Shown one piece after another: positions 15,648 through 33,289 of a stretch of 64,000 nucleotides of DNA. The notes below the pieces were generated by a model. That model did no database searches. It was not told the DNA's origin and saw only the letters and a program-made list of their open reading frames with translations. The stretch covers positions 11,374 through 75,373 of the forward strand of contig JAZLKZ010000107.1 in assembly GCA_045597845.1 (NCBI GenBank). The letters are read 5' to 3'. Origin of the DNA: Bacteroidales bacterium (lineage in GTDB: Bacteria > Bacteroidota > Bacteroidia > Bacteroidales > P3). Each line of letters starts with the position of its first letter. Position 1 is the first letter of the stretch. A program made the translations under genes and the position numbers.

Positions 15648-16094
15648 ATGCTCTTATCCAAAGAAATTGCCGTATATCTGAATCTTGCCGGGTGCAAGCT
15701 CAAGCAATACACCGCTTCGATGCTTCGCCAAGGCAACATCCAGCTCACGCCAGAGCAGTTTCTTTTGATAGACCTTCTTTGGAATCAGGGAGCGATGTCG
15801 CAACAGCAACTGGCCGACATACTTCACAAAGACAAGAACAGCGTCACTAAACTCGTGGACGCATTGGAACGCAAGGAGTTGGTTTCGCGAGAGCGCAGTA
15901 CTTCCGACCGAAGGTCGAATATCATCACGCTCACCGAAAAAGCCGAACAGCTGAAGGAGAAAGCGAAAGAACAAGGCATCTCGGCGTTGGACAAAATGCT
16001 TGACGGCATCAGCGAAGAGGAGCTGCGGCAATTTCTCAACACGCTCAACAAGATGTCCAAGAACATGGAAAACGCAAACAAAAGCCAAGAGTGA
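15648..16094 (+). CDS. MarR-family transcriptional regulator
   Basis: The winged-helix core is present: LTPEQFLLIDLLWNQGAMSQQQLADILHKDKNSVTKLVDALERKELVSRERSTSDRRSNIITLTEKA. Confidence 0.9.
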   Translation: MLLSKEIAVYLNLAGCKLKQYTASMLRQGNIQLTPEQFLLIDLLWNQGAMSQQQLADILHKDKNSVTKLVDALERKELVSRERSTSDRRSNIITLTEKAEQLKEKAKEQGISALDKMLDGISEEELRQFLNTLNKMSKNMENANKSQE

Positions 16095-16120
16095 AACTCC
16101 TGGCTTTTATTCAATAAAAT

Positions 16121-17389
16121 CTAAAACAAAGCGCTCACGCGTTGCACCACGTCCTCGTCGGGAGTATCAGGCGAAAGCACCAAATCTGGTTTTTTCATCA
16201 CTACGCCTTGCCGCTGGGCCTCGATGAGACCGCCACCCGTACAATTCAGCATGATATACTCGTCGCGCTTCACTGCGCCTGACTTTACGGTCTGAGCCAA
16301 AGCCGAGACGGCCACACAAGCGGCGGGCAGCAAGTCGTAGCCTTCCAAATTGCGGAACTGCATCATCCAATATATGATGTCGTTATTGTCGCTCAAGAAG
16401 AAGTCGCCGTGACTCTGCCGCAAAGTATCAAACAACCCTCCAGCGAGGCCATACGGCGGCTTGCGGTTGGAGAGCACCTTGGCAAGAATCACTTCCACCT
16501 TGTGGTGTGCATCTTCGAGTTCGAGCAACTGTCGCGAACCAGCTTTCCAAGAATCATACATTATGGAGAAAGGATCGTTCTGCGCCACAAAGACCTTCAT
16601 GTTGTTTTGGCCCCAGTTTCCATCTTGCTCCAATCGACACGCGTTCTCCCAAGCCGCAATGGCTCCCGTACCAGAGCCCACAGCTTGGAAATAAGCGTCG
16701 GGAATCCGTCCCATCTGCTCGGCGCAGCTCAAGACAGTCGTACCCATTCCATCACGACGTGCAACATTTTTGGCGCCACCCTCCAAAAAGAATCGGGGAT
16801 CCTTCGCAAGCTTCTCACCCAAAGCTATGGCGTCGTAATAATCACAACCATGAGGCACTGCGACCAACTTGACGCAAGAATCCAACGGTTGCGCAAACCA
16901 CAAATCACGCAGGCAATCTTGTGGCACACATATCACAATAGGGATTTTATTGTCGGAGCACACCTGAGCGAAAGCTCTTGCCGTATTGCCAGCCGACTGC
17001 ACAACAAGTATGCGTTTTTCGGCATCGTCCATTCGAGCCAACACAGCATACGCTTCAGTCTCCTTGAACGAGCAGGTGCGCATCTTGGCGCCAATCCGAG
17101 GATTCCATCCCGAAAAAGTAATGTACAGATTTTGCAAACCCAACAATCGAGCCAGACCTTCGGACTTGTAGGACACAGGGGCACAGGAGCCTTTCAGCAA
17201 CCGTTTGATAGGCAGCCAACAAGCATAACGATAAAGTCCTTCAAGGTCTTCTCGGGGCTGGAATTTTCCATATTGCGCTCGAATCAAAGAAGGATTACTG
17301 CTTTGAGGATCAGCGAGCGACCAGCCACTGTCTTCAAACACATGGCCATCGCTCACATTCATGAGATTGTATTTCGTTGGTATAAACAT
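16121..17389 (-). CDS. Threonine-synthase-fold PLP enzyme, cysteate-synthase-like
   Basis: The PLP-lysine context TCSFKETEA differs from the SFKD of canonical threonine synthase. The block GLYRYACWLPI..APVSYKSEGLARLLGLQNLYITFSGWNPRIGAKM resembles what I recall of the cysteate synthase family (TIGR03844). Not verified by a search. Confidence 0.55.
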   Translation of the reverse strand: MFIPTKYNLMNVSDGHVFEDSGWSLADPQSSNPSLIRAQYGKFQPREDLEGLYRYACWLPIKRLLKGSCAPVSYKSEGLARLLGLQNLYITFSGWNPRIGAKMRTCSFKETEAYAVLARMDDAEKRILVVQSAGNTARAFAQVCSDNKIPIVICVPQDCLRDLWFAQPLDSCVKLVAVPHGCDYYDAIALGEKLAKDPRFFLEGGAKNVARRDGMGTTVLSCAEQMGRIPDAYFQAVGSGTGAIAAWENACRLEQDGNWGQNNMKVFVAQNDPFSIMYDSWKAGSRQLLELEDAHHKVEVILAKVLSNRKPPYGLAGGLFDTLRQSHGDFFLSDNNDIIYWMMQFRNLEGYDLLPAACVAVSALAQTVKSGAVKRDEYIMLNCTGGGLIEAQRQGVVMKKPDLVLSPDTPDEDVVQRVSALF

Positions 17390-17445
17390 ATTGTTGAGTT
17401 TTTAGTTTCAGATTTTTCAGAATTTCAGACGATCAGAGTTTTAGA

Positions 17446-19278
17446 TTAGTGACTATGGGAGACATCCTCGATTATCAATTCGTCAACTATCTCGGCCAAA
17501 TCACGAACAGGGCGGTCGGAATAGCGAGAAAAAGTGGTCTTGCACAATGGACAGGCCGTAGCAATGGCTTCAGCCCCACTCTCGGCAAGGTTATCCAAAG
17601 ATGCACGCGTAATCTTTTCTCTCTGGGCAAAATCCAACGACAACGAGCCAAGCGAGCCACCGCAGCATACGCTCATCTCACGATTTTTCTCTGCCTCGCG
17701 AATTTGCGCCACACGATTCAACAATTGCCGAGGTTCCTCATACATGCCACATCCCCTACCCAATTCACATGGATCGTGGAAAACATAGCTAACCTCACTT
17801 TGAATGATTTGAATCTTCTCCGACGCAATAAGATCCAGCATAAAAGGAACATAATGCACCACGCTGATGTCCTTCAAATCGTAATGTTCGAGAAACATCC
17901 TATAACAGATCGGGCAACTTACGAGTAGAACTTTCGCCCCACTATTTTTGATAAGTTCTTGATTCTTTCGAACCAGCTGTTCAGCCTCCTTCATTCGTCC
18001 CGCCGTGTAGAGCGGACGTCCGCAGCATATTCCACCTTCACGATCCATCCACTCATAATCGACGCCGGATTTGCGCAAAATAGATTCCACGCTCTTGCCT
18101 ATCGCAGGTGTCAGTTGAGTCATACAACCTCCAAAATAGAGGACTTTGTCGATTTGTTGATTTGAAGAACTGGTGATTAGCGATTGAGGGAGGTTGGAAA
18201 AATCGGGAGAGAATCCATAATGTCTCCTAGCCCGCTGCATCAAGCGCAATTGAGCGCCATCCACTCCCACTTGGCACACTTCCTTGCATTTCCCGCACAT
18301 AAGACATTTGTCGCTAATCTGCTCGATGCGACGCTCGTTTCCCCTTCGAACCTGCCGGGTAAGATAGACAGTACAATCCTTGAGATTCGCTCTATTGGCA
18401 CTCATTGGACAAGCATCAACACATACACCGCAATTGGGGCAGCTCAACACCTGCACACGGGTAAATCCTTTGCGCGCATCCACCATTTTCAATCCCGCAT
18501 TGCGCATGGGAATCAACAACATCTCTGCGGGGATATGCATATATCGCGTAAACGGAAGCACACACATAAAGACGCACAAAGCAATAGAATAGGCCCACCA
18601 CGTAGGCAGCATGTTCAACTCATTGCCCAAGAACTGACGGAACACCCAGTTTGCAGGGATTGTCAGGAACGAGCCACCGCTGATGTGAGCCGTAAAGCTT
18701 TCGGCCAACAGGCGCAAGGGGAAAATAGCCCACAAAGCATAGAGTCCCACCAAATTCAGGAAAGAAGGTCGCGCCGTACGCCGCATACCGAAGAGTCGAG
18801 AACTCACCCTTTTGACCATTGCCAGCACGATGCCGCTCAGCACCACCAACAAGAAGAAATCCATCAAGAAAAACAGCAGCGAGCCTCGCAATGTCATCTC
18901 ATCTTCGGCCACAAAATAGTTGAAAAAGATAGGATAATAGAACAAATTGATTCGCTTAGGGACAAACAATACGACCTCAAGATGGCCGAGAACAATCAGC
19001 ATAAACCAGCCAAAGGCAATGCTGGAATGCATATATCCCAGAAACCTGTTGCGCTTCCACAATTTCACATGGAACAGACAGTCACAAAAGATATCGCGGA
19101 TGTTCTTCAGCATTGTCTCGGGAGTAATCAAACTCACTGCCAGCTTGCGTCGATCTTTCCACGACAGCTGCTTTATTATCCTAAACAATCCAAATGCGCA
19201 ATAGCCAAGCACAAAAGCCATTCCTACGAGAAATGGGATAACGAACGGATGAAATCCTGATGGAATGCGATCAATCAT
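17446..19278 (-). CDS. Membrane-anchored Fe-S/CCG-domain oxidoreductase (HdrE/DsrM-like membrane domain fused to HdrD/DsrK-like domain)
   Basis: The N-terminal ~270 aa are polytopic with conserved His (GYMHSSIAFGW, TRYMHIPAE). Two ferredoxin motifs follow (CPNCGVCVDACP, CLMCGKCKEVC), then two CCG-type Cys modules (CCGRP..CPICY, CCGGS..CPLCK). Confidence 0.7.
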   Translation of the reverse strand: MIDRIPSGFHPFVIPFLVGMAFVLGYCAFGLFRIIKQLSWKDRRKLAVSLITPETMLKNIRDIFCDCLFHVKLWKRNRFLGYMHSSIAFGWFMLIVLGHLEVVLFVPKRINLFYYPIFFNYFVAEDEMTLRGSLLFFLMDFFLLVVLSGIVLAMVKRVSSRLFGMRRTARPSFLNLVGLYALWAIFPLRLLAESFTAHISGGSFLTIPANWVFRQFLGNELNMLPTWWAYSIALCVFMCVLPFTRYMHIPAEMLLIPMRNAGLKMVDARKGFTRVQVLSCPNCGVCVDACPMSANRANLKDCTVYLTRQVRRGNERRIEQISDKCLMCGKCKEVCQVGVDGAQLRLMQRARRHYGFSPDFSNLPQSLITSSSNQQIDKVLYFGGCMTQLTPAIGKSVESILRKSGVDYEWMDREGGICCGRPLYTAGRMKEAEQLVRKNQELIKNSGAKVLLVSCPICYRMFLEHYDLKDISVVHYVPFMLDLIASEKIQIIQSEVSYVFHDPCELGRGCGMYEEPRQLLNRVAQIREAEKNREMSVCCGGSLGSLSLDFAQREKITRASLDNLAESGAEAIATACPLCKTTFSRYSDRPVRDLAEIVDELIIEDVSHSH

Positions 19279-19314
19279 GGAATAAAGAGTGAGTATCGAT
19301 TAGAAGCACAAAGA

Positions 19315-19629
19315 TTACAAGTTTCGGCAGACTGTCAAAACAAGATTGCGCGTATTGACGCCACGAGGACAAGCCATGGAGCACTTTCCGCACAACATGC
19401 AATTGGACAACATCGTACGGACGTCCTTGCCTCGCTGAAGGGCAAGAATCACCTTACGCACGCTCATACCGCTATATGGCGCCGCCACGCAGCTTGCGCT
19501 ACAAGACCCACAACTCATGCAGATGCGTGCGCTAGGGACCTGACGGCAGACCCGTTCGTACAGTTCTACGTCAACGGAATCCATGTCGATGGTAGCGCTT
19601 TTGCTGATAGTAAAGCCAAAGTCTGTCAT
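19315..19629 (-). CDS. Small 2x[4Fe-4S]-type ferredoxin-domain protein
   Basis: Contains CMSCGSCSASC and CMLCGKCSMACP. Its start overlaps the stop of the upstream gene by 4 nt. Confidence 0.65.
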   Translation of the reverse strand: MTDFGFTISKSATIDMDSVDVELYERVCRQVPSARICMSCGSCSASCVAAPYSGMSVRKVILALQRGKDVRTMLSNCMLCGKCSMACPRGVNTRNLVLTVCRNL

Positions 19630-20654
19630 AGGTTATTGAAATAAGAATGAATACGCAATGCCACGGCACGGGCCTCCGACAGGGTTTCCGGGATGGTTTT
19701 TGCGCCCGTGCATGCACCAGCATAGAAAACGCCATCCTGGTTGGATTCCTGGATATTTGCCAGATTGTCGCGGCTCTTGAAAAATCCATCGTTGCCAACG
19801 TCCAACCTCAACATTTCGGCGACTTTCGGAGTCTGTGGATGGCACACCATGCCTGCCATCAACACAAGCAAGTCGAGACGTATCTTGAGCGGCTTTCCCA
19901 TGAGCGTATCCTCCGCCTTGACGCACAACCTACCTTCAATGTCCTCGCCCACCTCAGACACCCTGCCCCGAATAAAATGCACTCCAAAATCGCGCTGGGC
20001 GTTGATGTAGAAATCCTCGTATTTTTTCCCGAAAAGGCGCAGATCCATATAAAAGCAATAGAGTTCGGAATCAGGAAACAGTTCTTTCATCTCTATGGCC
20101 TGCTTGACAGCCGTCATACAACAGACCTTAGAACATTGATTGTTTCCCGCCTTCAAGTCGCGAGAGCCCACACAATGCACAAAGCCTACGCTTCGCGGCG
20201 ATTCAGGAACACGTGTGTCAACGCGACCATTCATCCATTGCTCCAAGTCGCCATTGGTTATCACGCGGTCGTAAACGCCATAGCCATATTCTTCTTTCTT
20301 TCTGGCGTCGAAAAGGCCAAAACCCGTCGCAACCAGCACAACTCGAGTGGTTACATCAACGCCATTGCTGAGCGAAAGCGTATAGTGAGACCTGCTGAAC
20401 TTCACCGAAACAACGCTGGTGTCCAAGAAAACATTCGTAGAGGCAATGGCTTTTGACAGTCTGCCAATGACATCACGCGCCACCGACATGTCGGGGAACA
20501 ACCTGTGCCATTGAGCCACATGTCCACCAAGAGTGCTTTCTCGCTCCACGATTATCGGATTATAGCCAAGCATCTGCAGTTGATTGGCCGCTTCCATTCC
20601 GGCGATACCGCCACCTATTATGACAACGTTTTGCTTCATATCTTTTAATAACAA
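19626..20654 (-). CDS. Short HdrA-like FAD-dependent oxidoreductase
   Basis: The dinucleotide fold VVIIGGGIAGMEAA is present, with HdrA-type Cys (VHCVGSRD..CSKVCC). Its 342 aa resembles the short sHdrA type rather than methanogen HdrA. Confidence 0.7.
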   Translation of the reverse strand: MLLKDMKQNVVIIGGGIAGMEAANQLQMLGYNPIIVERESTLGGHVAQWHRLFPDMSVARDVIGRLSKAIASTNVFLDTSVVSVKFSRSHYTLSLSNGVDVTTRVVLVATGFGLFDARKKEEYGYGVYDRVITNGDLEQWMNGRVDTRVPESPRSVGFVHCVGSRDLKAGNNQCSKVCCMTAVKQAIEMKELFPDSELYCFYMDLRLFGKKYEDFYINAQRDFGVHFIRGRVSEVGEDIEGRLCVKAEDTLMGKPLKIRLDLLVLMAGMVCHPQTPKVAEMLRLDVGNDGFFKSRDNLANIQESNQDGVFYAGACTGAKTIPETLSEARAVALRIHSYFNNL

Positions 20655-21751
20655 CGAATGGACTTTGGCAACTCGGGACGCATGATATCCTCACGATTCA
20701 CGCCGAGATATTTTGCGTCGGAATCATAATCCACACCCATTTTATCCAGCAGAGGCTCCACCGCCACCTGATGCAACTGCAATCCCAAATCCCAAGGGTC
20801 GTATCCCAACACCAAACCCGCCAGTTCCTCATAAGTAAGCACTGGTATTCCGAATCCATTTTCGCCGTAGGTCTTTCCCGTCTGTTCCGCGATGACATAC
20901 TGCCATCTGTCGAGAAAATAGGGGCACCCCGGGCAATTGGCAACGATGGCATCTGGATGGTAAGGCTTCATAGATTCGAATTTCTTATAGGTGTTGGAAA
21001 TGCTATAACCTCGGTTGGCCTTTACATGATATTGGCGGAAACCATATCCGCAACAATGCCGACGCTCGGGATAATCGACCACCTCTCCGCCCCAGCTCTC
21101 AATCATTCCGGCCAGGACATAAGGATACTCGGCACCGCCTTCGCCTTTGGAAGGGAACATCTTGGCGTAATGGCAGCCGATATGCTCAACGATACGCAAC
21201 GGAACGCCCGTATGAGGATTTACCAAAAGATGCTTCGCCTTGGCAGCAATGGCATCACGCCAATGAAAAATCAAGTCGCTCGAATGGGCGAGGTATTTAG
21301 GCTTTTTGAATTCCCGTCGACAAGCCTTCCACAAATTCTCCCGAATCTTGGCTTCCAGTTCGGGAAACTGCTCCCAAGTCTCCAGAATTTCGGCATAGTT
21401 TCCGAAAGAGGTAATGCAACTTGGCACATAATTCTCATAACCCGCCTCGGTCATCAAGGCAAACTGTCGCGCCACGATGGTCATCGCGGTTTCTTGAGGC
21501 AAGGTATCGCAATGATAGGCAATACCTCCACAAGTGGTATGATGCGGAGTTTCGTAAAGGTCTTTTCCAAGCACATTACGCGTAATCTCAGTAAACATTC
21601 TTTCGCTGGCAGGAAAGAAATTCTGACGGATGCAGCTCCGCACATAATACCAATGATCGTCTGGTATATCTTTTTGATATTCACTCCAAATTCTCTTTTT
21701 ACCTTCGTAAATCATGCTGAGTTCCAGGTTTAAAATTAATTGAGGCGTCAA
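20645..21751 (-). CDS. HdrB-like protein with two CCG domains
   Basis: Cys motifs CGGIAYHC, CCGYGF and CPGCPYF are present. The alternative start ATG 21715 (MIYEGKK) is likely. Confidence 0.7.
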   Translation of the reverse strand: MTPQLILNLELSMIYEGKKRIWSEYQKDIPDDHWYYVRSCIRQNFFPASERMFTEITRNVLGKDLYETPHHTTCGGIAYHCDTLPQETAMTIVARQFALMTEAGYENYVPSCITSFGNYAEILETWEQFPELEAKIRENLWKACRREFKKPKYLAHSSDLIFHWRDAIAAKAKHLLVNPHTGVPLRIVEHIGCHYAKMFPSKGEGGAEYPYVLAGMIESWGGEVVDYPERRHCCGYGFRQYHVKANRGYSISNTYKKFESMKPYHPDAIVANCPGCPYFLDRWQYVIAEQTGKTYGENGFGIPVLTYEELAGLVLGYDPWDLGLQLHQVAVEPLLDKMGVDYDSDAKYLGVNREDIMRPELPKSIRCY

Positions 21752-21766
21752 CCCACAAGTTACAAC

Positions 21767-22459
21767 TCACTCATTGAAATGTTTGTCGGAACCATACTCA
21801 AATGCTTGGCGCTCATATTCATCCAGACCAAGACCCATCTCGGCGGCCTTTTTGGCGGAGCACTCCTCCACATGACGAATACGTTCCGAACCGCCCGTAA
21901 CATCGAAAATGGCCTTAAGTTCATCCAACGACGATTGTGGAATTTGACGCAGAACCCCGGGACCTTCACCTTTGTAGTTTGCACCTTGTCGGCGCAGGCT
22001 CTGTTCCAAATGCTCTGTATGCCATTTCCATACAGGTCCAGACTCCTTGTGGTCCTCCCAACGGAAAGTCTCAGGATGGACACAATAGCCATATTTGAGG
22101 ATATTCCCAGTCATGATATGCGTGAGCGGGAGCATCTGCCTACCTTTTTCCGACTCGGTGAAATAGCCCAGGCGCACACTCAAATCCCGCAAAGCCATAA
22201 TAACCAAGCCAGGACCGTTTTTTCGAGGGCAGCGGGTCACGCAACTCATGCACTCGCCACAGTACCATATTGTATCCGATTTCAGCAACGCCTCAATCTG
22301 CTCATCGTCTCTCGTCTGGACGGTGGAGACAATCTTGCGCGGGTCGTATTTATAGAATTCAGCCGCAGGGCATACCGCAGTGCAGGTGCCGCAGTTTATG
22401 CAAGTATGGAAGCCCTCCTTGAATCGATAGTCCTTTGACAATTCCTCAAACAAATTCAT
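21767..22459 (-). CDS. HdrC-like 4Fe-4S dicluster protein
   Basis: CINCGTCTAVCP and CGECMSCVTRCP are spaced as in HdrC. The protein has a long C-terminal extension. Confidence 0.7.
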   Translation of the reverse strand: MNLFEELSKDYRFKEGFHTCINCGTCTAVCPAAEFYKYDPRKIVSTVQTRDDEQIEALLKSDTIWYCGECMSCVTRCPRKNGPGLVIMALRDLSVRLGYFTESEKGRQMLPLTHIMTGNILKYGYCVHPETFRWEDHKESGPVWKWHTEHLEQSLRRQGANYKGEGPGVLRQIPQSSLDELKAIFDVTGGSERIRHVEECSAKKAAEMGLGLDEYERQAFEYGSDKHFNE

Positions 22460-22528
22460 GTCGGTTCTAAGTTTTAAATTTCAAGCGGGTTTGATTTTAG
22501 AATCATCATGGCTTCTTTTCATTCACCA

Positions 22529-23314
22529 CTACACAGCATTTACGCGCCTTGCGAGCCATGCGCACATTCCAGGGAAGAATCGCTTGACTCTAACCATCCA
22601 CAATTCAGAACCTCCGACAAAGACCTCACGACGACCTCTTCGGATAGCCTTCACTATTTTCCTTGCCGCTTTGTCGGCAGAGATGCCACCCGCTTGACCG
22701 GGGTCCATCACGCCATGGCGCAAACCACCTTTATCCAATGCATTCACTGAAACATTTGTCTGAACCCTACCGGGACACACCATCGTCACGCGAATATCAT
22801 TGTTGTAATACTCCGCTTGCAAGGTCTCAAAAAAGCCATACAACGCATGTTTAGACGAGCTGTATGCGCAACGTAGCGGGAAACCGAAATAGCCAGCGAT
22901 GGAAGTTGTTACGGCAATACGTCCGCCGCCGGAAGCTATCATCATAGGCAGGATTGCCTGCGCCAAAGACACTGGGGCGAAGTAATTCACCTCCATAATC
23001 TTTCTCACCATGGAGGAAGATGTATCTTCAACAGAAGTGCGCTGACTTATTCCTGCATTGCAAAACAGGACTTCAATTCCATTAAAGAGATCCCACGCTT
23101 GTCGCACCAACATTCGCAGACCTTCCGGGTTTCCGAAATCATACGGCAATACCGCAACACCAGGCGCTCCCAGACTACGGCATTTTTCCGCCACAACAAG
23201 GAGCCTTTCCTCGGACGAAGAAGTGAGCACCAAACGCTCGCCTTTGCTGGCATAGTTGTAGGCGCACGCCTCTCCAATTCCCGAAGAGGCCCCAGTAATC
23301 CAAATTGTATTCAT
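22529..23314 (-). CDS. Classical short-chain dehydrogenase/reductase (SDR)
   Basis: Contains TGASSGIG, NAG and the catalytic YSSSK. Confidence 0.9.
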   Translation of the reverse strand: MNTIWITGASSGIGEACAYNYASKGERLVLTSSSEERLLVVAEKCRSLGAPGVAVLPYDFGNPEGLRMLVRQAWDLFNGIEVLFCNAGISQRTSVEDTSSSMVRKIMEVNYFAPVSLAQAILPMMIASGGGRIAVTTSIAGYFGFPLRCAYSSSKHALYGFFETLQAEYYNNDIRVTMVCPGRVQTNVSVNALDKGGLRHGVMDPGQAGGISADKAARKIVKAIRRGRREVFVGGSELWMVRVKRFFPGMCAWLARRVNAV

Positions 23315-23359
23315 ATCAATCAGACCACAAATTACAGTTCATTGGTCACTAGTCGCCAT

Positions 23360-24619
23360 TTAGCATTTGCGATCGGGCATTTCCTTGTCGTATTCGCCAT
23401 TCGCCAAACGCTGCTTGATGTCGCGGAAAGCCTCCAACGTACGGTCCACATCTTCGATAGTGTGGGCTGCGGTAGGAATGATACGGAAAATGAGCATTCC
23501 TGGAGGAATGACAGGATAGGTGACAATAGAGCAGAAAATATGATAGTTTTCGCGCAAATCGACCGCGATGTTGGTCGCCTGGTTGATGCCACAAGCCAGA
23601 TGGACAGGAGTCACGCACGCCTCGGCAGGTCCAATCTCGTAGCCCAATTCGCGAAAACCGTTCTGCAATCGGCGAGTTACTTCCCACAACTGTTTTCTGC
23701 GGGCGTCGCCCTCGGGTCCACGGATGATTTCAAGGCGTTTCAAACAGCCTTCCACAATAGGCATCGGCAACGATTTGGCGTACATCTGCGAACGCATATT
23801 GTAGCGCAGATAGGTGATGATTTCTTTCTCGGAAGCCACAAAACCGCCAATGGTGGCCATCGACTTGGCATAGGCACCAATATACAAGTCCACGCCGTCC
23901 ATGACTCCAAAATGCTCGGAGGTGCCACGTCCGTGAGGCCCCATGACGCCAAAGCCATGAGCGTCATCTATCAAGAAACGGAAGTTGTATTTCTGCTTCA
24001 ACGCTACAATCTGATCCAAAATGCCCAACGCACCCGTCATTCCAAACACGCCTTCGGTAATCACCAAAACGCCGCCACCGTTTTTGTCGGCTTCGGCACA
24101 GGCGCGAGCAACCATCTTCTCGCAATCCACAATGTCGTTATGACGGAATTTGTATTTGCTGCCAATGTGCAGACGGATGCCATCCAACAGGCAAGCGTGA
24201 CTTTCTGCGTCATATACAATAACATCATGGCGACCCACCAACGCGTCGATAGTAGAGACAATGCCCTGATATCCAAAATTGAATTCAAAAGCAGCCTCTT
24301 TGCATTCAAAGTCGGCCAACTGACGTTCCAATTCTTCATGCAAAGCAGTCTGGCCTGTCATCATACGGCTTCCCATTGGATACGCCATTCCCCAGCGGGC
24401 GGCGGCTTCGGCGTCCACCTTTCTGATTTCGGGATGATTGGCAAGTCCTAAATAATTGTTCAAGCTCCAGCAAAGTACGTCTTGTCCATTGAAACGCATA
24501 TTGGGGCCAAGCTCACCCTCCAACTTCGGGAAAGCGAAATAACCATCGGCCTTTTCACGAAACTGTCCGATAGGACCGCCCGTTGACTGCTTGATTTTAT
24601 CAAAGATATCTTTCTGCAT
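23360..24619 (-). CDS. Alpha-oxoamine synthase family PLP enzyme (AONS/KBL/SPT/cysteate-acyltransferase family)
   Basis: Shows the fold-type I AOS pattern: NNYLGLANHPE, DDAHGFGVMG, and a PLP-lysine region GAYAKSMATIGGF. Confidence 0.85.
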   Translation of the reverse strand: MQKDIFDKIKQSTGGPIGQFREKADGYFAFPKLEGELGPNMRFNGQDVLCWSLNNYLGLANHPEIRKVDAEAAARWGMAYPMGSRMMTGQTALHEELERQLADFECKEAAFEFNFGYQGIVSTIDALVGRHDVIVYDAESHACLLDGIRLHIGSKYKFRHNDIVDCEKMVARACAEADKNGGGVLVITEGVFGMTGALGILDQIVALKQKYNFRFLIDDAHGFGVMGPHGRGTSEHFGVMDGVDLYIGAYAKSMATIGGFVASEKEIITYLRYNMRSQMYAKSLPMPIVEGCLKRLEIIRGPEGDARRKQLWEVTRRLQNGFRELGYEIGPAEACVTPVHLACGINQATNIAVDLRENYHIFCSIVTYPVIPPGMLIFRIIPTAAHTIEDVDRTLEAFRDIKQRLANGEYDKEMPDRKC

Positions 24620-24666
24620 ATTATTGAAATTTTAAGTTTACAAATTAAGTTCAAATCATCGTTCAC

Positions 24667-25740
24667 CTATCTCACTTGCTCTTTCGAAACCCATCCCATC
24701 ATTCGGAAAAGCATTTTGGGCAAAGGTTTGTATTTATCTCTTTTCGTCATGTCGATAAACCATCCCAATTTCTTGACAATAGGGATTTTGTGCGTTTCCA
24801 CAAACTCTATCAACGTACCATCAGGATCTTCGATGTAAGTAAAATGACCCGAAGCGTCACCCATGTCGAACAACTCGTTTCCCGGACAACTATCCACCGT
24901 GAACGGATGGCCCTGTGAGGCGCAGAAGGCGCCCAACTCGCGCATTCCACTCACGTCGAAACAAATCTGAATGAAACCGGGGTCGCCCCAAAAACGGCCC
25001 TCGTAGATTTTACGAGGCACGCGCTCCAATGCCTGGACCAACTCTATGGAACTGTCGCCAAACATCTCGGCAAAGGCACCCTTTCGCGGTTGCGAAGTGG
25101 TTAGGAGCACCCTACGGCAACGCTGGCCTCCACCCGACAAACCAGCCCAATCCCCAAACTGATCGGTTACATCATACACCACTTTGTCGTAGCCAAGCAA
25201 CTCGCTGTAAAACTTAACGGACGCTTCCATATTGCTGACGCCAACCATAGCACCCGCGATTCCGCCCGTGAGACATTTACGTCGGATATAGCTGTGCGGT
25301 TGAGATACCATCTGGAAAAGATTCCCGTACAAATCCTTCACATAAAAGGTCTTTGTTCCATCTGGCATCTGGGCAGGCTTCGTACAGTCTTCCCACTTGG
25401 CGGACAACTCTTTATAGAAGGCATCCACGTCGCGACAATTCACCTTGGCGCAGAAAATACCCAAATCGCCAATCGACAATTCAAAATCAATCGGTTTTGG
25501 CTTGCGTTCAGAATACTGCCATATTTCGAAACCGCCACCTCCTTGCAAGTTTACGGCAATACAAGCATGACGCTTTTGAGGTGCGTTGCCAGTGTATGGC
25601 AACATACGTTCAGCAACGGTATCGTCCTCCAAAATCTTTGTATCCACGGAAAACATTTCAATAAACCAATTCCATGATTTACGGAAATCCTCCGTGCCAA
25701 CACCCACTTGCTGAATACCTGAGATATTAAAACCAGACAT
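24667..25740 (-). CDS. VOC (glyoxalase/bleomycin-resistance/dioxygenase) superfamily protein, multi-module
   Basis: Repeated beta-alpha-beta-beta-beta modules are visible (GIQQVGVGTEDF.., FCAKVNCRDVDAFY.., TYIEDPDGTLIEFVE). This is the first gene of the operon. Confidence 0.7.
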   Translation of the reverse strand: MSGFNISGIQQVGVGTEDFRKSWNWFIEMFSVDTKILEDDTVAERMLPYTGNAPQKRHACIAVNLQGGGGFEIWQYSERKPKPIDFELSIGDLGIFCAKVNCRDVDAFYKELSAKWEDCTKPAQMPDGTKTFYVKDLYGNLFQMVSQPHSYIRRKCLTGGIAGAMVGVSNMEASVKFYSELLGYDKVVYDVTDQFGDWAGLSGGGQRCRRVLLTTSQPRKGAFAEMFGDSSIELVQALERVPRKIYEGRFWGDPGFIQICFDVSGMRELGAFCASQGHPFTVDSCPGNELFDMGDASGHFTYIEDPDGTLIEFVETHKIPIVKKLGWFIDMTKRDKYKPLPKMLFRMMGWVSKEQVR

Positions 25741-25943: not shown

Positions 25944-25951
25944 CAAAAATA
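25944..25951 (-). promoter_or_regulatory. Candidate -7 promoter box (TATTTTTG) for the 25740-16121 operon
   Basis: The plus strand reads CAAAAATA. It is the only TAnnTTTG match I found between the VOC gene start and the rpmE2 terminator, about 205 nt upstream of ATG 25740. Confidence 0.35.
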
Positions 25952-26020
25952 AGACTTTTTTTTTATATGAAGGCTTTTATGGGGGAAAAAAATTACACTT
26001 CCCAAATTTTCGGCCTTATA

Positions 26021-26049
26021 TAAAAAGAAAAGGCATCCTAATGGATGCC
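26021..26049 (-). terminator. Intrinsic terminator of rpmE2
   Basis: The stem GGCATCC/GGATGCC (26032-26038 and 26043-26049) is followed on the minus strand by TTTTCTTTTT. Confidence 0.75.
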
Positions 26050-26093
26050 TTAAATCTAAATCTAAAACAAAATACCGATATGGAATGTATAGA

Positions 26094-26351
26094 TTATTTC
26101 TTGGAATATCTCTTGTACTTGTTCATGAACTTATCAACGCGTCCGGCGGTGTCAACAAGTTTCAACTTACCCGTGAAGAAAGGGTGTGAAGTGTTGGAGA
26201 TTTCAAGCTTTACAACGGGATACTCATTACCATCGGTATAGGTAACGGTTTCTTTGGTGTTGGCGCAGCTCTTGGTGAGCACCATGGTGTCGTTAGACAT
26301 ATCCTTGAATACAACCAAGCGGTAATTTTCGGGATGGATTCCTTTTTTCAT
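26094..26351 (-). CDS. rpmE2: 50S ribosomal protein L31 type B
   Basis: Contains MKKGIHPENY...SNTSHPFFTGK..VDTAGRVDKF and lacks the CxxC zinc motif. Confidence 0.95.
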   Translation of the reverse strand: MKKGIHPENYRLVVFKDMSNDTMVLTKSCANTKETVTYTDGNEYPVVKLEISNTSHPFFTGKLKLVDTAGRVDKFMNKYKRYSKK

Positions 26352-26832
26352 CGTATTTGCGTTTTGCCGTTTTAAGCAGTGGCTTTTTAAACGATTGGTT
26401 AAACAATTATTTTCACTAAAAGATTTGCAAAATTACACAATTATTTTGAATTGGAGAAATAATTTACATTCCATCTTTACAGAATCACGAAGACACAAAG
26501 AAATACAACACATTACAAAAACAAACCAATCAAATACAACAAGGCAATTTTGAGTTGTGCATATCGATAATCCTTTGTAAAAATTGATTTTTCACTACAA
26601 AAAATAAGAATTCATCCAACAGGTTTTATATCTTTGCAACATAAATATTAGGTACGAAGCGGCCAAAGCAGGCTCTCAGTCGAACACCCATAAGCAAAAA
26701 GTTGAATTTTTAGAGCCTGTATCATTTTTTTTATATCTTTGCACCATCAAAAGGTAGTAATAACACCTGATTCCCGTTGTGAGTTCGGAATGAGGAAGTT
26801 AATAATTATAACTCACATATATACAATATAAT

Positions 26833-28146
26833 ATGAAAAAATTATCATTCAGACTTATGGTGTGCGCCTTGCTAATAGCCACCCCCGCCCACTCCCAAAA
26901 TTTTATTAAACAACTGGGCAACGCTGCCAAAAACGCTGCCAAAAACGCAGTAGAGCGTAACGTTACAAATAAAGTGGAGGAAGGCGTAGATAAAGCCTTT
27001 GACGCCAATTTACACAAAAACAACAACGAAAACCAGACATCCGATAACAATGAAGAACAGGCAGCTAACGGCTGGCAATGCCCGCAATGCGGTACAAAAG
27101 GCAATACAGGCAAGTTCTGCAACGAATGCGGAGCCAAACGCCCTGACGGAAGTTCTGCTACAGCAACAGTCACTGAGAAAAAAACAACCACAACCGAATA
27201 TGCAAAATGTGATTTCGTCCCAGGTGACGAGGTCTTCTTTGACGATCCTGTTGAGGGTGAACAAGTTGGTGAGTTCCCTAGCAAATGGGATATGATCAGT
27301 GGCTCTTCCGAAATAGCCGTCTTGAATGGAGAGCAAGTCATCACAATTGTTGAGCCTACTAGAATCTTGCCGCTTATGAAAGATGCCCGCAATTTCTTGG
27401 GTGATGCTTTCACTCTCGAACTCGATTTCTGGGGCACCGAACTCCAAGGCAGCGACTATGCCGAATATCTTCTTAATTTTGAAAGTGGCGATTATGGCAT
27501 TAAGATGTTTGTTTACAGCTCGAGCACCTCGTATGAAGTGTGGTGGCACAACAACTCAACAGGCAACTGGGCAAATGCTAGTGGCGAAATACCAAATATC
27601 AATATCAACGGATGGAACCACCTTGCTGTCTCTTTCAACAAACGCGCTCTCAAAGTCTATATCAATGGCACACGCGTTGCTTCTGCTCCTAATGTCAAGC
27701 CTTCCACATGGTTCAATATCGGAAATGAGCTCTGGAAATCTCATGGTTACATCAAAAACATCCGTTTGGCAAAGGGCGCAGTACCTCTCTACGACCGACT
27801 TGCTTCAGAAGGCAAAATCATCACCTACGCTATCACTTTTGAGACAGGAAAGGCTGACCTCAAACCTGAGTCTATGGTCGAAATTAACCGTATTGCCAAG
27901 CTGATGAACAACGACGCTTCGCTCAACTTTGAGGTTCAAGGCCACTGCGACAATACCGGCTCCGACAAAGTCAACGACCCGCTCAGCCAGAAGCGTGCAG
28001 AAGCAATCGTTGCCGCTTTGGTAGAACAGGGCATTAATGCTTCCCGCCTCACCGCTGTAGGCAAAGGTAGCCATAACCCTATTGCAGACAACTCGACAGA
28101 TGAGGGCCGCGCTAAAAACAGAAGAGTGGAATTCATAAAAAAATAA
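26833..28146 (+). CDS. OmpA-family protein with signal peptide, zinc-ribbon-like segment, LamG/lectin-like middle domain and OmpA_C domain
   Basis: Signal peptide ..LLIATPAHSQ, CPQCGTKGNTGKFCNECG, a LamG-like region (WNHLAVSFNKRALKVYINGTRV), and an OmpA_C region (FETGKADL.., GHCDNTGS..LSQKRA.., NRRVEF). Confidence 0.85.
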   Translation: MKKLSFRLMVCALLIATPAHSQNFIKQLGNAAKNAAKNAVERNVTNKVEEGVDKAFDANLHKNNNENQTSDNNEEQAANGWQCPQCGTKGNTGKFCNECGAKRPDGSSATATVTEKKTTTTEYAKCDFVPGDEVFFDDPVEGEQVGEFPSKWDMISGSSEIAVLNGEQVITIVEPTRILPLMKDARNFLGDAFTLELDFWGTELQGSDYAEYLLNFESGDYGIKMFVYSSSTSYEVWWHNNSTGNWANASGEIPNININGWNHLAVSFNKRALKVYINGTRVASAPNVKPSTWFNIGNELWKSHGYIKNIRLAKGAVPLYDRLASEGKIITYAITFETGKADLKPESMVEINRIAKLMNNDASLNFEVQGHCDNTGSDKVNDPLSQKRAEAIVAALVEQGINASRLTAVGKGSHNPIADNSTDEGRAKNRRVEFIKK

Positions 28147-28407
28147 TACAAAACAAACAACTTAACGCATTCAACCATATTGGCTTTGGTATTAGCCGTT
28201 CAAACATTGGCCAGTGTCAACATCGATATACACCCCTTAACTCGGCCGCTTCTATCATAGCATCCGAACGACTCAAACCAAAATATCGAGTGGCAACTAT
28301 TATAAAGGAGATACTTGCAAATGCACCAAGAATACGCAACCTTCACCCGCCACCAATATAACAATTATGATAATATATACTTTATCCTAAATAAAAAATT
28401 ATTCATC

Positions 28408-28977: not shown

Positions 28978-29013
28978 GCATTGGCTTAGCTATATTTTGA
29001 CAAATAGTGTCGA

Positions 29014-29051
29014 AAAATCACTTTTGTCTAAAGGGCAAAAGTGATTTTTTT
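29014..29051 (+). terminator. Intrinsic terminator
   Basis: A 13-bp stem AAAATCACTTTTG/CAAAAGTGATTTT with a 9-nt loop and a T-run. Confidence 0.8.
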
Positions 29052-29070
29052 AATATAAACCCCAAACAAT

Positions 29071-32316: not shown

Positions 32317-32547
32317 TTAATACCCTCTCATATCACATTATATAAAACGCCACAAAATCATAATAACAGAAAATGTCACATTGCAATCTATACAAAATCA
32401 AACAATTGACAATTATGCAATTATACTGATTATTTTTGTTGTTTATTTAAACTTATTCACGAATATTGAGGTTACTATATAAACCCACCAAGAGATATTC
32501 TCGGCAGACAAGCTCTGCCAAATCTCAAATCTTAAAACTTAAACATT

Positions 32548-33259: not shown

Positions 33260-33289
33260 TTGCCGATACGCAATGATTCAATAACATAG

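What the first reader, a model, noticed from the sequence alone, without database searches (positions are those of the whole stretch)
16121..25740. Nine-gene operon joining capnine/sulfonolipid-type enzymes to an sHdr-like heterodisulfide-reductase module
**Seen in sequence.** Nine minus-strand ORFs have junctions ranging from a 10-nt overlap to a 69-nt gap, including overlaps at 19626-19629 and 20645-20654. In transcription order they are:

1. VOC protein
2. alpha-oxoamine synthase
3. SDR
4. HdrC-like protein (two CxxCxxCxxxCP)
5. HdrB-like protein (CCGYGF, CPGCPYF)
6. short HdrA-like flavoprotein (GGGIAG, CSKVCC)
7. 104-aa di-cluster ferredoxin
8. 610-aa membrane/FeS/CCG fusion
9. threonine-synthase-fold PLP enzyme with TCSFKETEA

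**Established knowledge, as I recall it.** Capnine is made by cysteate synthase, a cysteate acyltransferase of the AONS family, and an SDR dehydrocapnine reductase (Cap/Sul genes of Capnocytophaga, Flavobacterium, Alistipes). Cysteate synthase consumes sulfite plus O-phosphoserine. sHdr complexes of sulfur oxidisers have the gene order hdrC1-B1-A-hyp-C2-B2 and release sulfite from bound sulfane sulfur.

**Inference.** The Hdr genes here follow that same order, with C2-B2 replaced by a membrane-anchored fusion. The module may be a dedicated sulfite-generating or redox-coupling unit feeding cysteate and sulfonolipid synthesis in an anaerobe. I know of no characterised example of this linkage.
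Basis: partly seen in the sequence, partly recalled or inferred. Interest (0 to 1): 0.88.

Follow-up and report, generated by a model that had tools for sequence, protein, structure and literature searches.

The report
Sulfonolipid operon with membrane-anchored Hdr-like module
A horse-gut Bacteroidales bacterium has one operon joining the enzymes that build the sulfonolipid head group to a membrane-anchored iron-sulfur flavoprotein complex; this pairing recurs in relatives and may explain where strict anaerobes get the sulfite these lipids need.

Summary
The nine minus-strand genes are real, tightly packed and bracketed by terminator-like hairpins.

Two genes are firmly capnine-pathway enzymes. 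One is a cysteate synthase (TIGR03844, 413 bits against a cutoff of 325). The other is a cysteate fatty-acyltransferase (553 bits to Alistipes SulA, 214 to Spt).

Five genes lie between the SDR and the cysteate synthase:
- HdrC1-like
- HdrB1-like
- short HdrA
- a truncated HdrC2-like ferredoxin
- a 610-aa protein built like EtfD/EMO (five TM helices, two ferredoxin clusters, two CCG motifs)

The linkage is conserved. 38 of 80 related cysteate-synthase loci carry the module directly upstream. Six loci carry only the module plus cysteate synthase. Two other Bacteroidales lineages keep the module next to SulA-type genes in different gene orders. Loci without the module almost always carry a YeiH-family transporter instead.

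The module also stands alone in Alistipes, the cultured sulfonolipid producers. No lipoate-binding protein is linked, so it is not a canonical sHdr.

Best reading (inferred, untested): the module supplies sulfite to cysteate synthase by oxidising sulfane sulfur and passing the electrons to menaquinone. I found no prior description.

The parts
26030..26051 (-). Terminator-like hairpin after the upstream rpmE (L31) gene; upstream limit of the operon
   Evidence: 9-pair stem with 5 GC pairs, followed by a T-rich tail.
25944..25951 (-). Candidate Bacteroidetes-type -7 promoter box (TATTTTTG, matching TAnnTTTG)
   Evidence: Sequence read. The consensus is from my own knowledge. Function not tested.
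24667..25740 (-). VOC/glyoxalase-fold protein (357 aa) of unknown role; first gene of the operon
   Evidence: Pfam PF00903, 43 bits. No close solved structure. Co-conserved with the cap genes. Lies directly next to HdrC in the rearranged loci L121, L131, L132, L134 and L158.
23360..24619 (-). Cysteate C-fatty-acyltransferase (SulA/CapB/CFAT type alpha-oxoamine synthase)
   Evidence: 552.7 bits to 7U7H and 537.9 bits to 28eh 'Cysteate-C-fatty acyltransferase', against 214 bits to Spt. That 7U7H is the Alistipes finegoldii SulA structure is my recollection. Below the NCBIfam cutoffs for Spt, Kbl and BioF.
22529..23314 (-). Short-chain dehydrogenase, candidate 3-ketocapnine reductase
   Evidence: PF00106, 158 bits. 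PRK06181, 202 bits, just under the cutoff of 215. The role is assigned from position only.
21767..22459 (-). HdrC1-like di-[4Fe-4S] protein (230 aa)
   Evidence: NCBIfam HdrC models, 67-83 bits, below cutoffs. 51% identical to HdrC1 of the Picosynechococcus hdr cluster.
20645..21715 (-). HdrB1-like protein (356 aa from ATG 21715). The C-terminal CCG motif is complete. The N-terminal CCG motif is reduced to 3 of 5 Cys, with the last Cys replaced by Ser
   Evidence: 115.6 bits to methanogen HdrB. Alignment. Homologues are 356 aa. Exhaustive search shows a small distinct clade.
19626..20639 (-). Short HdrA-like FAD/[4Fe-4S] flavoprotein (337 aa from ATG 20639), without ferredoxin domains
   Evidence: Full-length match to sHdrA 6TJR (192 bits, residues 10-334). 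223 bits to the methanogen HdrA core.
19315..19629 (-). 104-aa di-cluster ferredoxin, a truncated HdrC2-like protein
   Evidence: 31% identical to residues 11-112 of cyanobacterial HdrC2. HdrC models score 30 bits.
17446..19278 (-). EtfD/EMO/HdrDE-like membrane protein (610 aa): about five TM helices, two CxxCxxCxxxC motifs and two complete CCG motifs
   Evidence: Invariant His70, His84 and His248 plus all cluster Cys in 27 homologues. Best PDB profile match is 9ojn, 113 bits. Best fold match is 9ojn 'M. smegmatis EtfD', E 1e-16 (the model is low confidence, pLDDT 62). The architecture matches the EMO description.
16121..17389 (-). Cysteate synthase (O-phosphoserine + sulfite -> cysteate); last gene
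   Evidence: TIGR03844, 412.9 bits, above the cutoff of 324.9. 487 bits to PDB 9k3c 'Cysteate synthase'.
16075..16113 (-). Terminator-like hairpin right after cysteate synthase; downstream limit of the operon
   Evidence: 18-pair stem; sequence.
15648..16094 (+). Convergent MarR-family regulator with a single invariant N-terminal Cys16; possible regulator of the locus
   Evidence: PF01047, 66 bits. Sits next to cysteate synthase in many related loci. Cys16 is present in every full-length homologue aligned.

Best explanation
This is one operon for making the sulfonolipid (capnine-type) head group, with its own redox module built in.

**Shown by homology.**
- Cysteate synthase makes cysteate from O-phosphoserine and sulfite.
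- The SulA-type acyltransferase condenses cysteate with a fatty acyl thioester.
- The SDR is the candidate ketoreductase.

**Inferred.** The five genes between the SDR and cysteate synthase encode one membrane-anchored Hdr-like complex.
- HdrB1/HdrC1 form the catalytic site.
- Short HdrA is the flavin hub.
- The small HdrC2-like ferredoxin is the wire.
- The EtfD/EMO-like haem-b/FeS protein is the link to menaquinone.

**Most likely role.** The complex supplies sulfite to cysteate synthase. It would oxidise sulfane sulfur, derived from the abundant sulfide or cysteine of the gut, to sulfite. The four electrons would pass to the menaquinone pool, and then for example to fumarate reductase.

Relatives that lack the module would instead import the sulfur substrate through a YeiH-family transporter.

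**My confidence in each step.**

| Step | Confidence |
|---|---|
| Capnine enzymes | about 0.9 |
| Functional coupling of the module to cysteate synthase | about 0.75 |
| Sulfite supply | about 0.55 |
| Oxidative direction with menaquinone as acceptor | about 0.4 |
For: **Enzyme identities.**

**Conserved linkage.**
- 38 of 80 cysteate-synthase loci from related species carry all, or in truncated loci part, of the module directly upstream of cysteate synthase.
- In six loci with at least 9 kb of upstream sequence, the module plus cysteate synthase form a six-gene unit without the other cap genes. L031/L044 and L040 show this unit in different flanks.
- Two further Bacteroidales lineages keep the module next to a SulA-type gene (630 bits to 7U7H) in different gene orders: L087/L088, and L134 and L158.

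**Complementary pattern.**
- Among cap or Hdr loci with enough flank, the counts are: Hdr only 26, both 6, YeiH-family transporter only 13, neither 1 (Fisher p = 3e-6, not corrected for phylogeny).
- The two states interleave on a cysteate-synthase tree, implying repeated swaps.
- YeiH is named a candidate sulfite transporter in PMC11582611.

**Sulfur-related neighbours of the same HdrC1/B1 clade elsewhere.**
- Methionine-gamma-lyase-family enzymes.
- Sulfide:quinone reductase on a Picosynechococcus plasmid.
- A CoA-disulfide-reductase-like flavoprotein, assigned by reading its sequence and not scanned against Pfam.

**Parallels to sHdr.** The gene order C1-B1-A-(C2-like)-(membrane quinone link) parallels type II sHdr, which is proposed to pass electrons to menaquinone via Etf and EMO.

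**The membrane protein is EtfD/EMO-like.**

**Presence in sulfonolipid producers.** The module occurs in Alistipes putredinis, A. communis and other Alistipes, the known sulfonolipid-producing genus.
Against: - There is no experimental evidence. Substrate and direction are inferred from neighbourhood only.
- sHdr systems depend on LbpA and on TusA/DsrE sulfurtransferases. None is linked here or in any of the first 173 fetched loci.
- HdrA scores higher per residue to methanogen HdrA than to sHdrA. The nearest named HdrB outgroups are archaeal.
- In Alistipes and many other contigs the module stands alone among housekeeping genes. Related HdrCBA modules sit in polysaccharide loci with no obvious sulfur link. 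The module is therefore not dedicated to sulfonolipids.
- The SQR neighbour was seen in one cyanobacterial record and not in Planktothrix or Phormidium.
- Many sulfonolipid-type loci do without the module.
- By textbook potentials that I recall, the sulfite/S0 couple lies slightly above menaquinone. The oxidation would need pulling by sulfite consumption and quinol reoxidation.
Confidence: 0.45

Rival explanations
1. The module still supplies sulfite, but by reduction. It would work like HdrDE or DsrMK, taking electrons from menaquinol or another donor to cleave an S-S bond in thiosulfate, S-sulfocysteine, tetrathionate or a protein thiosulfonate. This would release sulfite for cysteate synthase.
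For: - The membrane protein has all ten CCG cysteines, as in catalytic HdrB/HdrD, and the HdrDE architecture.
- DsrK, TmcB and HmcF models hit its C-terminal half.
- The neighbourhood evidence for a link to cysteate synthase fits this reading equally well.
Against: - By the potentials I recall, thiosulfate cleavage lies far below menaquinol, so it would need extra energy input.
- No thiosulfate transporter or rhodanese is linked.
- In EMO/EtfD the same domains serve electron transfer, not catalysis.
- One sister cluster sits next to a sulfide-oxidising SQR.
Confidence: 0.2
2. The module is a general thiol/disulfide or electron-sink complex of these anaerobes. It has no specific tie to sulfite, and its position inside the sulfonolipid operon reflects operon shuffling or shared regulation.
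For: - The module stands alone in Alistipes and many other Bacteroidota.
- HdrC/HdrB pairs of the same clade occur with quite different partners.
- 16 cap-type loci and 11 loci with cysteate synthase alone (all with at least 6 kb of upstream sequence) lack the module nearby.
Against: - The module is adjacent to cysteate synthase or CFAT in at least three independent gene orders.
- The six-gene unit of module plus cysteate synthase occurs in different flanks.
- Its distribution is complementary to a YeiH-family transporter, with repeated switches.
Confidence: 0.2
3. The module acts on a pathway intermediate rather than on inorganic sulfur. For example, it could oxidise a thiol-bearing precursor (cysteine or a thiol lipid) stepwise to the sulfonate, or recycle a thiol cofactor used by the PLP enzymes.
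For: - In the L087, L134 and L158 lineages the PLP enzyme next to CFAT is not a TIGR03844 cysteate synthase. It is a different ThrC-fold enzyme, so the chemistry upstream of CFAT may differ there.
- The VOC protein of unknown role travels with HdrC in rearranged loci.
Against: - In this window the PLP enzyme is a clear cysteate synthase, whose characterised relatives use sulfite (the reaction is from my knowledge of the family).
- No precedent for such chemistry by CCG proteins is known to me.
Confidence: 0.1

Closest known systems
Capnine/sulfobacin pathway (cysteate synthase CapA/Cys, cysteate fatty-acyltransferase CapB/SulA/CFAT, 3-ketocapnine reductase CapC/KCR)
   Same: Cysteate synthase and CFAT are clear orthologues. 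An SDR sits with them.
   Different: - In Alistipes finegoldii and Chryseobacterium gleum the reductases are reported as scattered and not clustered with cfat and Cys (PMC11211663).
- Here everything is in one operon, together with a VOC protein and a five-gene redox module.
- I found no sulfonolipid paper that mentions heterodisulfide reductase, and the three that hold 'sulfonolipid', 'cysteate' and 'sulfite' deal with sulfonate degradation or sulfated metabolites.
Sulfur-oxidising heterodisulfide-reductase-like system (sHdr) types I and II of sulfur oxidisers
   Same: - Gene order C1-B1-A followed by C2/B2-type components.
- Short HdrA without ferredoxin domains, with a full-length match to sHdrA 6TJR.
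- Type II is proposed to hand electrons to menaquinone through an EMO protein.
- The proposed product is sulfite.
   Different: - No LbpA, lipoate-maturation, TusA or DsrE genes are linked, although these are described as inevitably associated.
- No sHdrH, and no EtfAB.
- The EMO-like protein is inside the module.
- The host is a strict gut anaerobe and the context is biosynthetic rather than dissimilatory.
- The nearest named HdrB outgroups in the exhaustive search are archaeal; where sulfur-oxidiser sHdrB1 falls was not tested.
EtfD/EMO (ETF:(methyl)menaquinone oxidoreductase) and methanogen HdrDE
   Same: - One chain with about five TM helices, an HdrC-like two-cluster domain and an HdrB-like CCG domain.
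- Invariant His84 and His248 lie within 3 residues of the proximal-haem ligands His87 and His251 of Syntrophus EMO.
- EtfD is the best sequence and fold match.
   Different: - No EtfAB partner genes. The partner here is an HdrCBA unit plus a small ferredoxin.
- The distal-haem histidine is not conserved. An extra invariant His70 is present.
- Only 18% identity to EtfD in the fold alignment.
Methanogen HdrABC
   Same: It gives the best PDB sequence matches for HdrA and HdrB. The C-terminal CCG motif is complete.
   Different: - HdrA lacks the N-terminal, inserted and C-terminal ferredoxin domains.
- The HdrB N-terminal CCG motif keeps only 3 of 5 cysteines.
- No hydrogenase or formate dehydrogenase partner.
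- All HdrA, HdrB and HdrC NCBIfam scores are far below cutoffs.
Cyanobacterial hdrC1B1A-C2B2 clusters (Picosynechococcus plasmid, Planktothrix)
   Same: They are the closest relatives outside the Bacteroidales-dominated group: HdrC 51%, HdrB 42% and HdrA 42% identical. They share the same reduced N-terminal CCG motif.
   Different: - Soluble C2 and B2 replace the membrane protein.
- One record has an adjacent SQR; the others do not.
- I came across no characterisation of these clusters, but did not search the literature for them.

Membership tests
Capnine/sulfonolipid biosynthesis pathway | Cysteate synthase of the TIGR03844 family | tested here: met
   412.9 bits, above the curated cutoff of 324.9. 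487 bits to PDB 9k3c, against 49 bits to threonine synthase.
Capnine/sulfonolipid biosynthesis pathway | Cysteate C-fatty-acyltransferase (SulA/CapB clade of alpha-oxoamine synthases), distinct from Spt, Kbl and BioF | tested here: met
   553 and 538 bits to 7U7H and 28eh, against 214 bits to Spt. Below the Spt, Kbl and BioF cutoffs.
Capnine/sulfonolipid biosynthesis pathway | 3-ketocapnine reductase (CapC/KCR) activity of the SDR | tested here: inconclusive
   Only family-level SDR matches. No characterised KCR sequence was available for comparison.
Capnine/sulfonolipid biosynthesis pathway | The organism makes capnine- or sulfobacin-type lipids | not testable with these tools
   The organism is an uncultured MAG (Candidatus Colimorpha pelethequi-like). 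Lipidomics is needed.
sHdr (sulfur-oxidising Hdr-like) system | Syntenic shdrC1-B1-A core with a short HdrA | tested here: met
   Gene order. Full-length match of the short HdrA (342-aa ORF, 337 aa from ATG) to 6TJR.
sHdr (sulfur-oxidising Hdr-like) system | Associated lipoate-binding protein LbpA and its maturation genes | tested here: not met
   No GcvH/LbpA-like ORF in the 64-kb window or in the 173 loci held at the time (tblastn with a GcvH-like probe, best E above 1). The rest of the genome could not be examined.
sHdr (sulfur-oxidising Hdr-like) system | Associated TusA, DsrE or rhodanese sulfurtransferases | tested here: not met
   None among the nine operon genes. None was evident in the window ORF list, but that list was not HMM-scanned gene by gene.
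sHdr (sulfur-oxidising Hdr-like) system | sHdrH plus HdrC2/HdrB2 (type I), or HdrB3 plus EtfAB plus EMO (type II) | tested here: not met
   The small protein is C2-like. There is no separate B2 or B3 and no EtfAB. An EMO-like protein is present.
sHdr (sulfur-oxidising Hdr-like) system | HdrB1 and HdrA group phylogenetically with those of sulfur oxidisers | not tested
   No curated sHdrB1 sequences were available. Indirectly, the closest named outgroups are archaeal, and HdrA scores higher to methanogen HdrA than to 6TJR.
Methanogen-type HdrABC | Long HdrA with ferredoxin domains, and HdrB with ten cluster cysteines | tested here: not met
   HdrA is 337-342 aa and matches only the core. The HdrB N-terminal CCG motif has 3 of 5 Cys.
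EtfD/EMO family | NarI-like five-TM domain with a proximal-haem His pair, an HdrC-like two-cluster domain and a CCG (NCB) domain in one chain | tested here: met
   - Invariant His84 and His248 and all cluster Cys.
- Helix pattern of the model (low confidence).
- Best PDB matches are to 9ojn EtfD.
- Haem binding itself was not tested.
EtfD/EMO family | Works with EtfAB | tested here: not met
   No Etf genes in the operon or window.

The most novel reading that the evidence does not exclude
Strictly anaerobic gut Bacteroidales (UBA932-type rumen and hindgut species, and Alistipes) possess a third kind of sHdr-like system. It is lipoate-independent and wired to menaquinone through a built-in EtfD/EMO-like subunit. 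It would run an anabolic, oxygen-free oxidation of sulfide-derived sulfane sulfur to sulfite, whose purpose is to feed cysteate and sulfonolipid synthesis. This would be the missing sulfite source for immunomodulatory gut sulfonolipids.
Probability: 0.35. Interest if true: 0.88.

Novelty: new variant of a known kind. Interest (0 to 1): 0.78.

Why it matters
Sulfonolipids of Alistipes and its relatives act on host immunity, for example through TLR4 signalling and in inflammatory bowel disease (PMC11525784). Their pathway starts with a sulfite-dependent cysteate synthase. I found no account of where strict anaerobes in a sulfide-rich gut obtain sulfite.

A conserved redox module welded to cysteate synthase gives a concrete candidate, and so does an apparently interchangeable YeiH-family transporter. 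The idea is testable because the same module exists in cultured Alistipes.

For sulfur biochemistry, it would extend Hdr-like sulfur oxidation in four ways:
- to anaerobes
- to a biosynthetic role
- to a lipoate-free form
- to a direct EtfD/EMO-type quinone link

It also shows that HdrC1/HdrB1 units are modular parts combined with several different electron-transfer partners.

Tried and rejected
- **Ordinary threonine synthase or Kbl/Spt.** Rejected by curated cutoffs and PDB scores.
- **The 104-aa protein as sHdrH ('hyp').** Rejected. It aligns to the N-terminal half of HdrC2.
- **Pfam match for the membrane domain.** None found, even at E = 10. Homology had to come from the profile search, the fold search and the conserved His positions.
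- **HdrC-HdrB-only loci as true sHdr-LbpA clusters.** Rejected. Reading the neighbour sequences, they look like DUF134, NifX-like, MinD-type Fe-S ATPase, radical SAM, CGGC and CoADR-like proteins. These neighbours were not scanned against Pfam, but tblastn found no LbpA-like ORF.
- **SQR adjacency as a general feature of the cyanobacterial sister clade.** Not upheld. It holds only for the Picosynechococcus plasmid.
- **Acidithiobacillus plasmid hit.** It is a different 446-aa Hdr-related protein at 28% identity and gives no help for placement.
- **Structure prediction with a diverse alignment.** The shallow alignment gave only pLDDT 62, so the fold search is indicative only.
- **One paper search.** It was wasted through a loose term setting.
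- **The BBA review on Fe/S proteins of sulfur oxidation.** Not held.
- **Cysteine pattern and placement of genuine sHdrB1.** Could not be checked.
- **Rest of the genome.** Could not be examined for LbpA, TusA, CysH, CysDN or a second copy of the module.

Full report
**1. The observation**

Listing ORFs across 13-29 kb shows nine consecutive minus-strand ORFs at exactly the coordinates given.

Two start codons probably lie further downstream than the ORF maxima:
- HdrB homologues are uniformly 356 aa, which implies ATG at 21715.
- HdrA relatives begin at the MK(N)IVIIGGG position, which implies ATG at 20639.

With these starts, the claimed 10-nt overlap becomes a 5-nt gap. The 4-nt HdrA/ferredoxin overlap remains, and all gaps stay at 69 nt or less.

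A terminator-like hairpin follows the upstream rpmE gene (26051-26030). An 18-pair hairpin follows the last gene (16113-16075). A TATTTTTG box, matching the Bacteroides -7 consensus as I recall it, lies at 25951-25944. This anatomy fits a single transcription unit, although co-transcription itself was not tested.

The closest genome is the horse-gut MAG Candidatus Colimorpha pelethequi, in the Bacteroidales (97% identity for cysteate synthase).

**2. The biosynthetic genes**

The last gene is a cysteate synthase.
- It scores 412.9 bits on TIGR03844, above the curated cutoff of 324.9.
- It scores 487 bits to the solved cysteate synthase 9k3c, against 49 bits to threonine synthase.

The alpha-oxoamine synthase is a cysteate C-fatty-acyltransferase.
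- It scores 553 bits to 7U7H and 538 bits to a chain named 'Cysteate-C-fatty acyltransferase', against 214 bits to serine palmitoyltransferase. That 7U7H is the Alistipes finegoldii SulA structure is my recollection.
- It falls below the curated cutoffs for Spt, Kbl and BioF.

The SDR is assignable only at family level. The first gene is a VOC-fold protein with no close relative of known function.

**3. The redox module**

*HdrC-like protein.* It has two ferredoxin-type motifs.

*HdrB-like protein.* It aligns end to end with methanogen HdrB. Its C-terminal CCG motif is complete. Its N-terminal motif keeps only three of five cysteines, with the last replaced by Ser. This signature is shared by the whole clade.

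*HdrA-like protein.* It is the short form. It matches sHdrA of Hyphomicrobium (6TJR) over its full length at 192 bits. It scores higher, at 223 bits, to the core of methanogen HdrA.

*104-aa ferredoxin.* It aligns to the N-terminal half of an HdrC2. It is therefore not the 'hyp' (sHdrH) of sHdr clusters.

*610-aa protein.* Several lines point to an EtfD/EMO-type protein.
- Across 27 homologues only 34-42% identical to it (one closer at 71%), it keeps invariant His70, His84 and His248 in the membrane part, eight Cys of two ferredoxin motifs and ten Cys of two CCG motifs.
- Its best PDB match by profile is 9ojn (113 bits, E 1e-31).
- Its best fold match is the same entry, 'Mycobacterium smegmatis EtfD' (E 1e-16).
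- The model is of low confidence (pLDDT 62). Its helix pattern nevertheless reproduces the five TM helices, with short helices after TM I and TM IV, described for EMO.
- The EMO preprint gives the proximal-haem ligands of Syntrophus EMO as His87 and His251. These lie three residues from the invariant His84 and His248 here.
- Architecturally, the protein is therefore an EtfD/EMO/HdrDE-type link between cytoplasmic Fe-S clusters and the menaquinone pool.

**4. Conservation of the linkage**

A scan of one genome per species returned 80 loci with a 67-97% identical cysteate synthase, nearly all from rumen or hindgut Bacteroidales MAGs. tblastn of all nine proteins gave these counts:
- 38 loci have the module directly upstream of cysteate synthase.
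- 30 of those also have cap genes, and 23 have all three.
- Six loci with at least 9 kb of upstream sequence have only the module plus cysteate synthase. L031/L044 and L040 show this six-gene unit in unrelated flanks.
- 16 loci have cap genes without the module.
- 18 loci have cysteate synthase alone.

On a neighbour-joining tree of cysteate synthase, the states with and without the module interleave. The module has therefore been gained or lost several times.

**5. A complementary partner**

In the cap loci that lack the module, a 446-aa PF03601 (YeiH family) membrane protein and a 95-aa membrane protein lie next to cysteate synthase.

Among loci with enough flanking DNA the counts are:

| State | Loci |
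|---|---|
| Module only | 26 |
| Both | 6 |
| Transporter only | 13 |
| Neither | 1 |

Fisher's test gives p = 3e-6, but this is not corrected for relatedness.

YeiH has been named a candidate sulfite transporter in Hyphomicrobium (PMC11582611). The simplest reading is that the module and the transporter are alternative ways of supplying the same substrate to cysteate synthase. This is an inference.

**6. Beyond this family**

An exhaustive search of 1.84 billion representatives with HdrB found only 54 proteins at E 1e-30 or better, mostly fragments of one clade. The full-length outgroups I could name, at 28-34% identity, are archaeal HdrB-like proteins.

Context look-ups and a metagenome scan showed the following.

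(i) *Cap genes in other gene orders.*
- In another Bacteroidales lineage the order is SulA-type gene, ThrC-fold PLP enzyme, HdrC-B-A-Fdx-membrane protein, then a thioredoxin-like gene, with an SDR on the opposite strand (L087/L088).
- The SulA-type gene there scores 630 bits to 7U7H.
- The PLP enzyme there is not a TIGR03844 member.
- A rearranged module, VOC-HdrC-Fdx-membrane protein-HdrB-HdrA, lies beside the same cap genes in L134 and L158.

(ii) *The module alone.* The five-gene module stands alone in Alistipes putredinis, A. communis and other Alistipes among housekeeping genes. It also stands alone in other Bacteroidota.

(iii) *Lyase neighbours.* In Tenuifilaceae the module is followed by a methionine-gamma-lyase-family enzyme. 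HdrC-HdrB pairs are also followed by such an enzyme (L095, L096).

(iv) *HdrC-HdrB alone.* These pairs sit in clusters that, judged by reading the neighbour sequences, encode DUF134, NifX-like, MinD-type ATPase and CGGC proteins and a CoADR-like flavoprotein. These neighbours were not scanned against Pfam.

(v) *Polysaccharide loci.* HdrCBA with a soluble Fer4-CCG fusion and an Amidohydro_2 gene lies inside polysaccharide loci.

(vi) *Cyanobacteria.* They have hdrC1B1A-C2B2 clusters. One lies next to a sulfide:quinone reductase (333 bits to SQR structures). Planktothrix and Phormidium lack that neighbour.

(vii) *A hybrid.* One contig has C1-B1-A, two ferredoxins, the membrane protein and then C2-B2 (L176). 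This suggests the membrane protein is an added electron outlet and not a substitute for B2.

**7. Comparison with sHdr**

The literature defines two types:
- Type I is shdrC1B1AHC2B2.
- Type II is shdrC1B1AHB3-etfAB-emo.
- Both are always accompanied by LbpA and by sulfurtransferases.
- Type II is proposed to pass electrons to menaquinone through Etf and EMO.

The module here shares the C1-B1-A core, the short HdrA and an EMO-type quinone link. It differs in three ways:
- No LbpA-like gene lies in the window or in any of the first 173 fetched loci.
- No sulfurtransferase is encoded in the operon, and none was evident in the window ORF list.
- There is no sHdrH and no EtfAB.

It should therefore not be filed as an sHdr system. 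It may still work like one.

**8. Mechanism**

*Shown by homology.* Cysteate synthase needs sulfite; the reaction is known from characterised family members and is my knowledge. The acyltransferase uses cysteate.

*Inferred.*
- The module supplies sulfite.
- Sulfane sulfur is oxidised at the HdrB1/HdrC1 site.
- Electrons pass through the HdrA flavin and the small ferredoxin to the EtfD-like subunit and then to menaquinone.

By textbook potentials that I recall, this oxidation is close to equilibrium with menaquinone. It would be pulled forward by sulfite consumption and by fumarate respiration.

The reductive alternative, release of sulfite from thiosulfate or S-sulfonates, cannot be excluded. 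A role unrelated to sulfite is made less likely by sections 4 to 6, but remains possible because the module often stands alone.

**9. Novelty**

- Full-text searches found no paper holding both 'sulfonolipid' and 'heterodisulfide reductase'.
- Ten papers hold both 'Alistipes' and 'heterodisulfide reductase'. Judged by titles and abstracts, and by the passages in the two I opened, none deals with an Alistipes Hdr-like complex.
- Three papers hold 'sulfonolipid', 'cysteate' and 'sulfite'. By title and abstract they concern sulfonate degradation or sulfated metabolites, not the sulfite supply for sulfonolipids.
- The kcr study reports that the reductase genes of A. finegoldii are scattered and do not cluster with the cfat and Cys genes.

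I rate this a new variant of a known kind, namely Hdr-like complexes, in a new biosynthetic context. Interest is high because the hypothesis is specific and can be tested in cultured Alistipes.

Noticed in passing
window 15648-16094 (+): A MarR-family regulator lies convergent with cysteate synthase. It has a single cysteine (Cys16), present in every full-length homologue aligned from related loci and placed as in 1-Cys OhrR-type redox sensors (the OhrR comparison is from memory). It may regulate the operon in response to oxidants or sulfur species.
   Followed up: partly
L002:11346-12686 and about 20 other related loci, directly after cysteate synthase or after the MarR gene: A 446-aa PF03601 (YeiH family) membrane protein and a 95-aa membrane protein accompany cysteate synthase in nearly all cap loci that lack the Hdr module. 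They are candidates for import of the sulfur substrate.
   Followed up: partly
L087:8033-9280, also L134 and L158: A 415-aa ThrC-fold PLP enzyme overlaps the stop of a SulA-type gene. It is neither a TIGR03844 cysteate synthase (110 bits against a cutoff of 325) nor a standard threonine synthase (155 bits against a cutoff of 303). It may be a second, undescribed type of cysteate or amino-sulfonate synthase.
   Followed up: partly
L083:8993-14219 and L085:5028-10187: An HdrC(320-329 aa)-HdrB-HdrA unit, with a soluble Fer4-CCG fusion (416-422 aa) and an Amidohydro_2 gene, is embedded in Wzz/flippase/glycosyltransferase polysaccharide loci. One of these contigs comes from a 'Deltaproteobacteria' MAG. 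Its role is unknown.
   Followed up: no
L098, L099, L103, L104, L106, L107, L112, L144, L162: HdrC-HdrB pairs of the same clade, without HdrA, sit in conserved clusters. Judged by reading the neighbour sequences (no Pfam scan), these encode DUF134, NifX-like proteins, MinD-type Fe-S ATPases, a radical SAM enzyme, a CGGC-domain protein and a CoA-disulfide-reductase-like flavoprotein.
   Followed up: partly
L081:9242-14982 (Picosynechococcus sp. PCC 7003 plasmid): An hdrC1-B1-A-C2-B2 cluster is followed directly by a sulfide:quinone reductase. It is the closest relative of the module outside the Bacteroidales-dominated group. The SQR neighbour is absent in Planktothrix (L175) and Phormidium (L174).
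   Followed up: partly
L176:4552-11511: One contig from an unidentified organism carries C1-B1-A, two small ferredoxins, a 632-aa membrane CCG protein, and then C2 and B2. It thus combines the membrane link with the classical C2/B2 pair.
   Followed up: no
window 24667-25740 (-); L121, L131, L132, L134, L158: The 357-aa VOC-fold protein has no close solved structure. It is the first gene of cap operons with or without the module. In rearranged loci it sits directly before HdrC, sometimes with no cap gene in view.
   Followed up: partly
L050:5041-6177 and 13 other loci with cysteate synthase alone: A conserved 378-aa protein with no Pfam match lies two or three genes downstream of the stand-alone cysteate synthases.
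   Followed up: no
L082:787-4490 (Acidithiobacillus ferrooxidans plasmid pACF1): A 446-aa Hdr-related CCG protein (28% identical to HdrB) lies near a GcvH-like gene, hemerythrin-domain genes and a thioredoxin gene on a small plasmid.
   Followed up: no
window 26000-36000: G+C drops to 0.38-0.44 here, against about 0.48-0.50 elsewhere. The stretch encodes large secreted or surface proteins. It may be a differently sourced segment.
   Followed up: no
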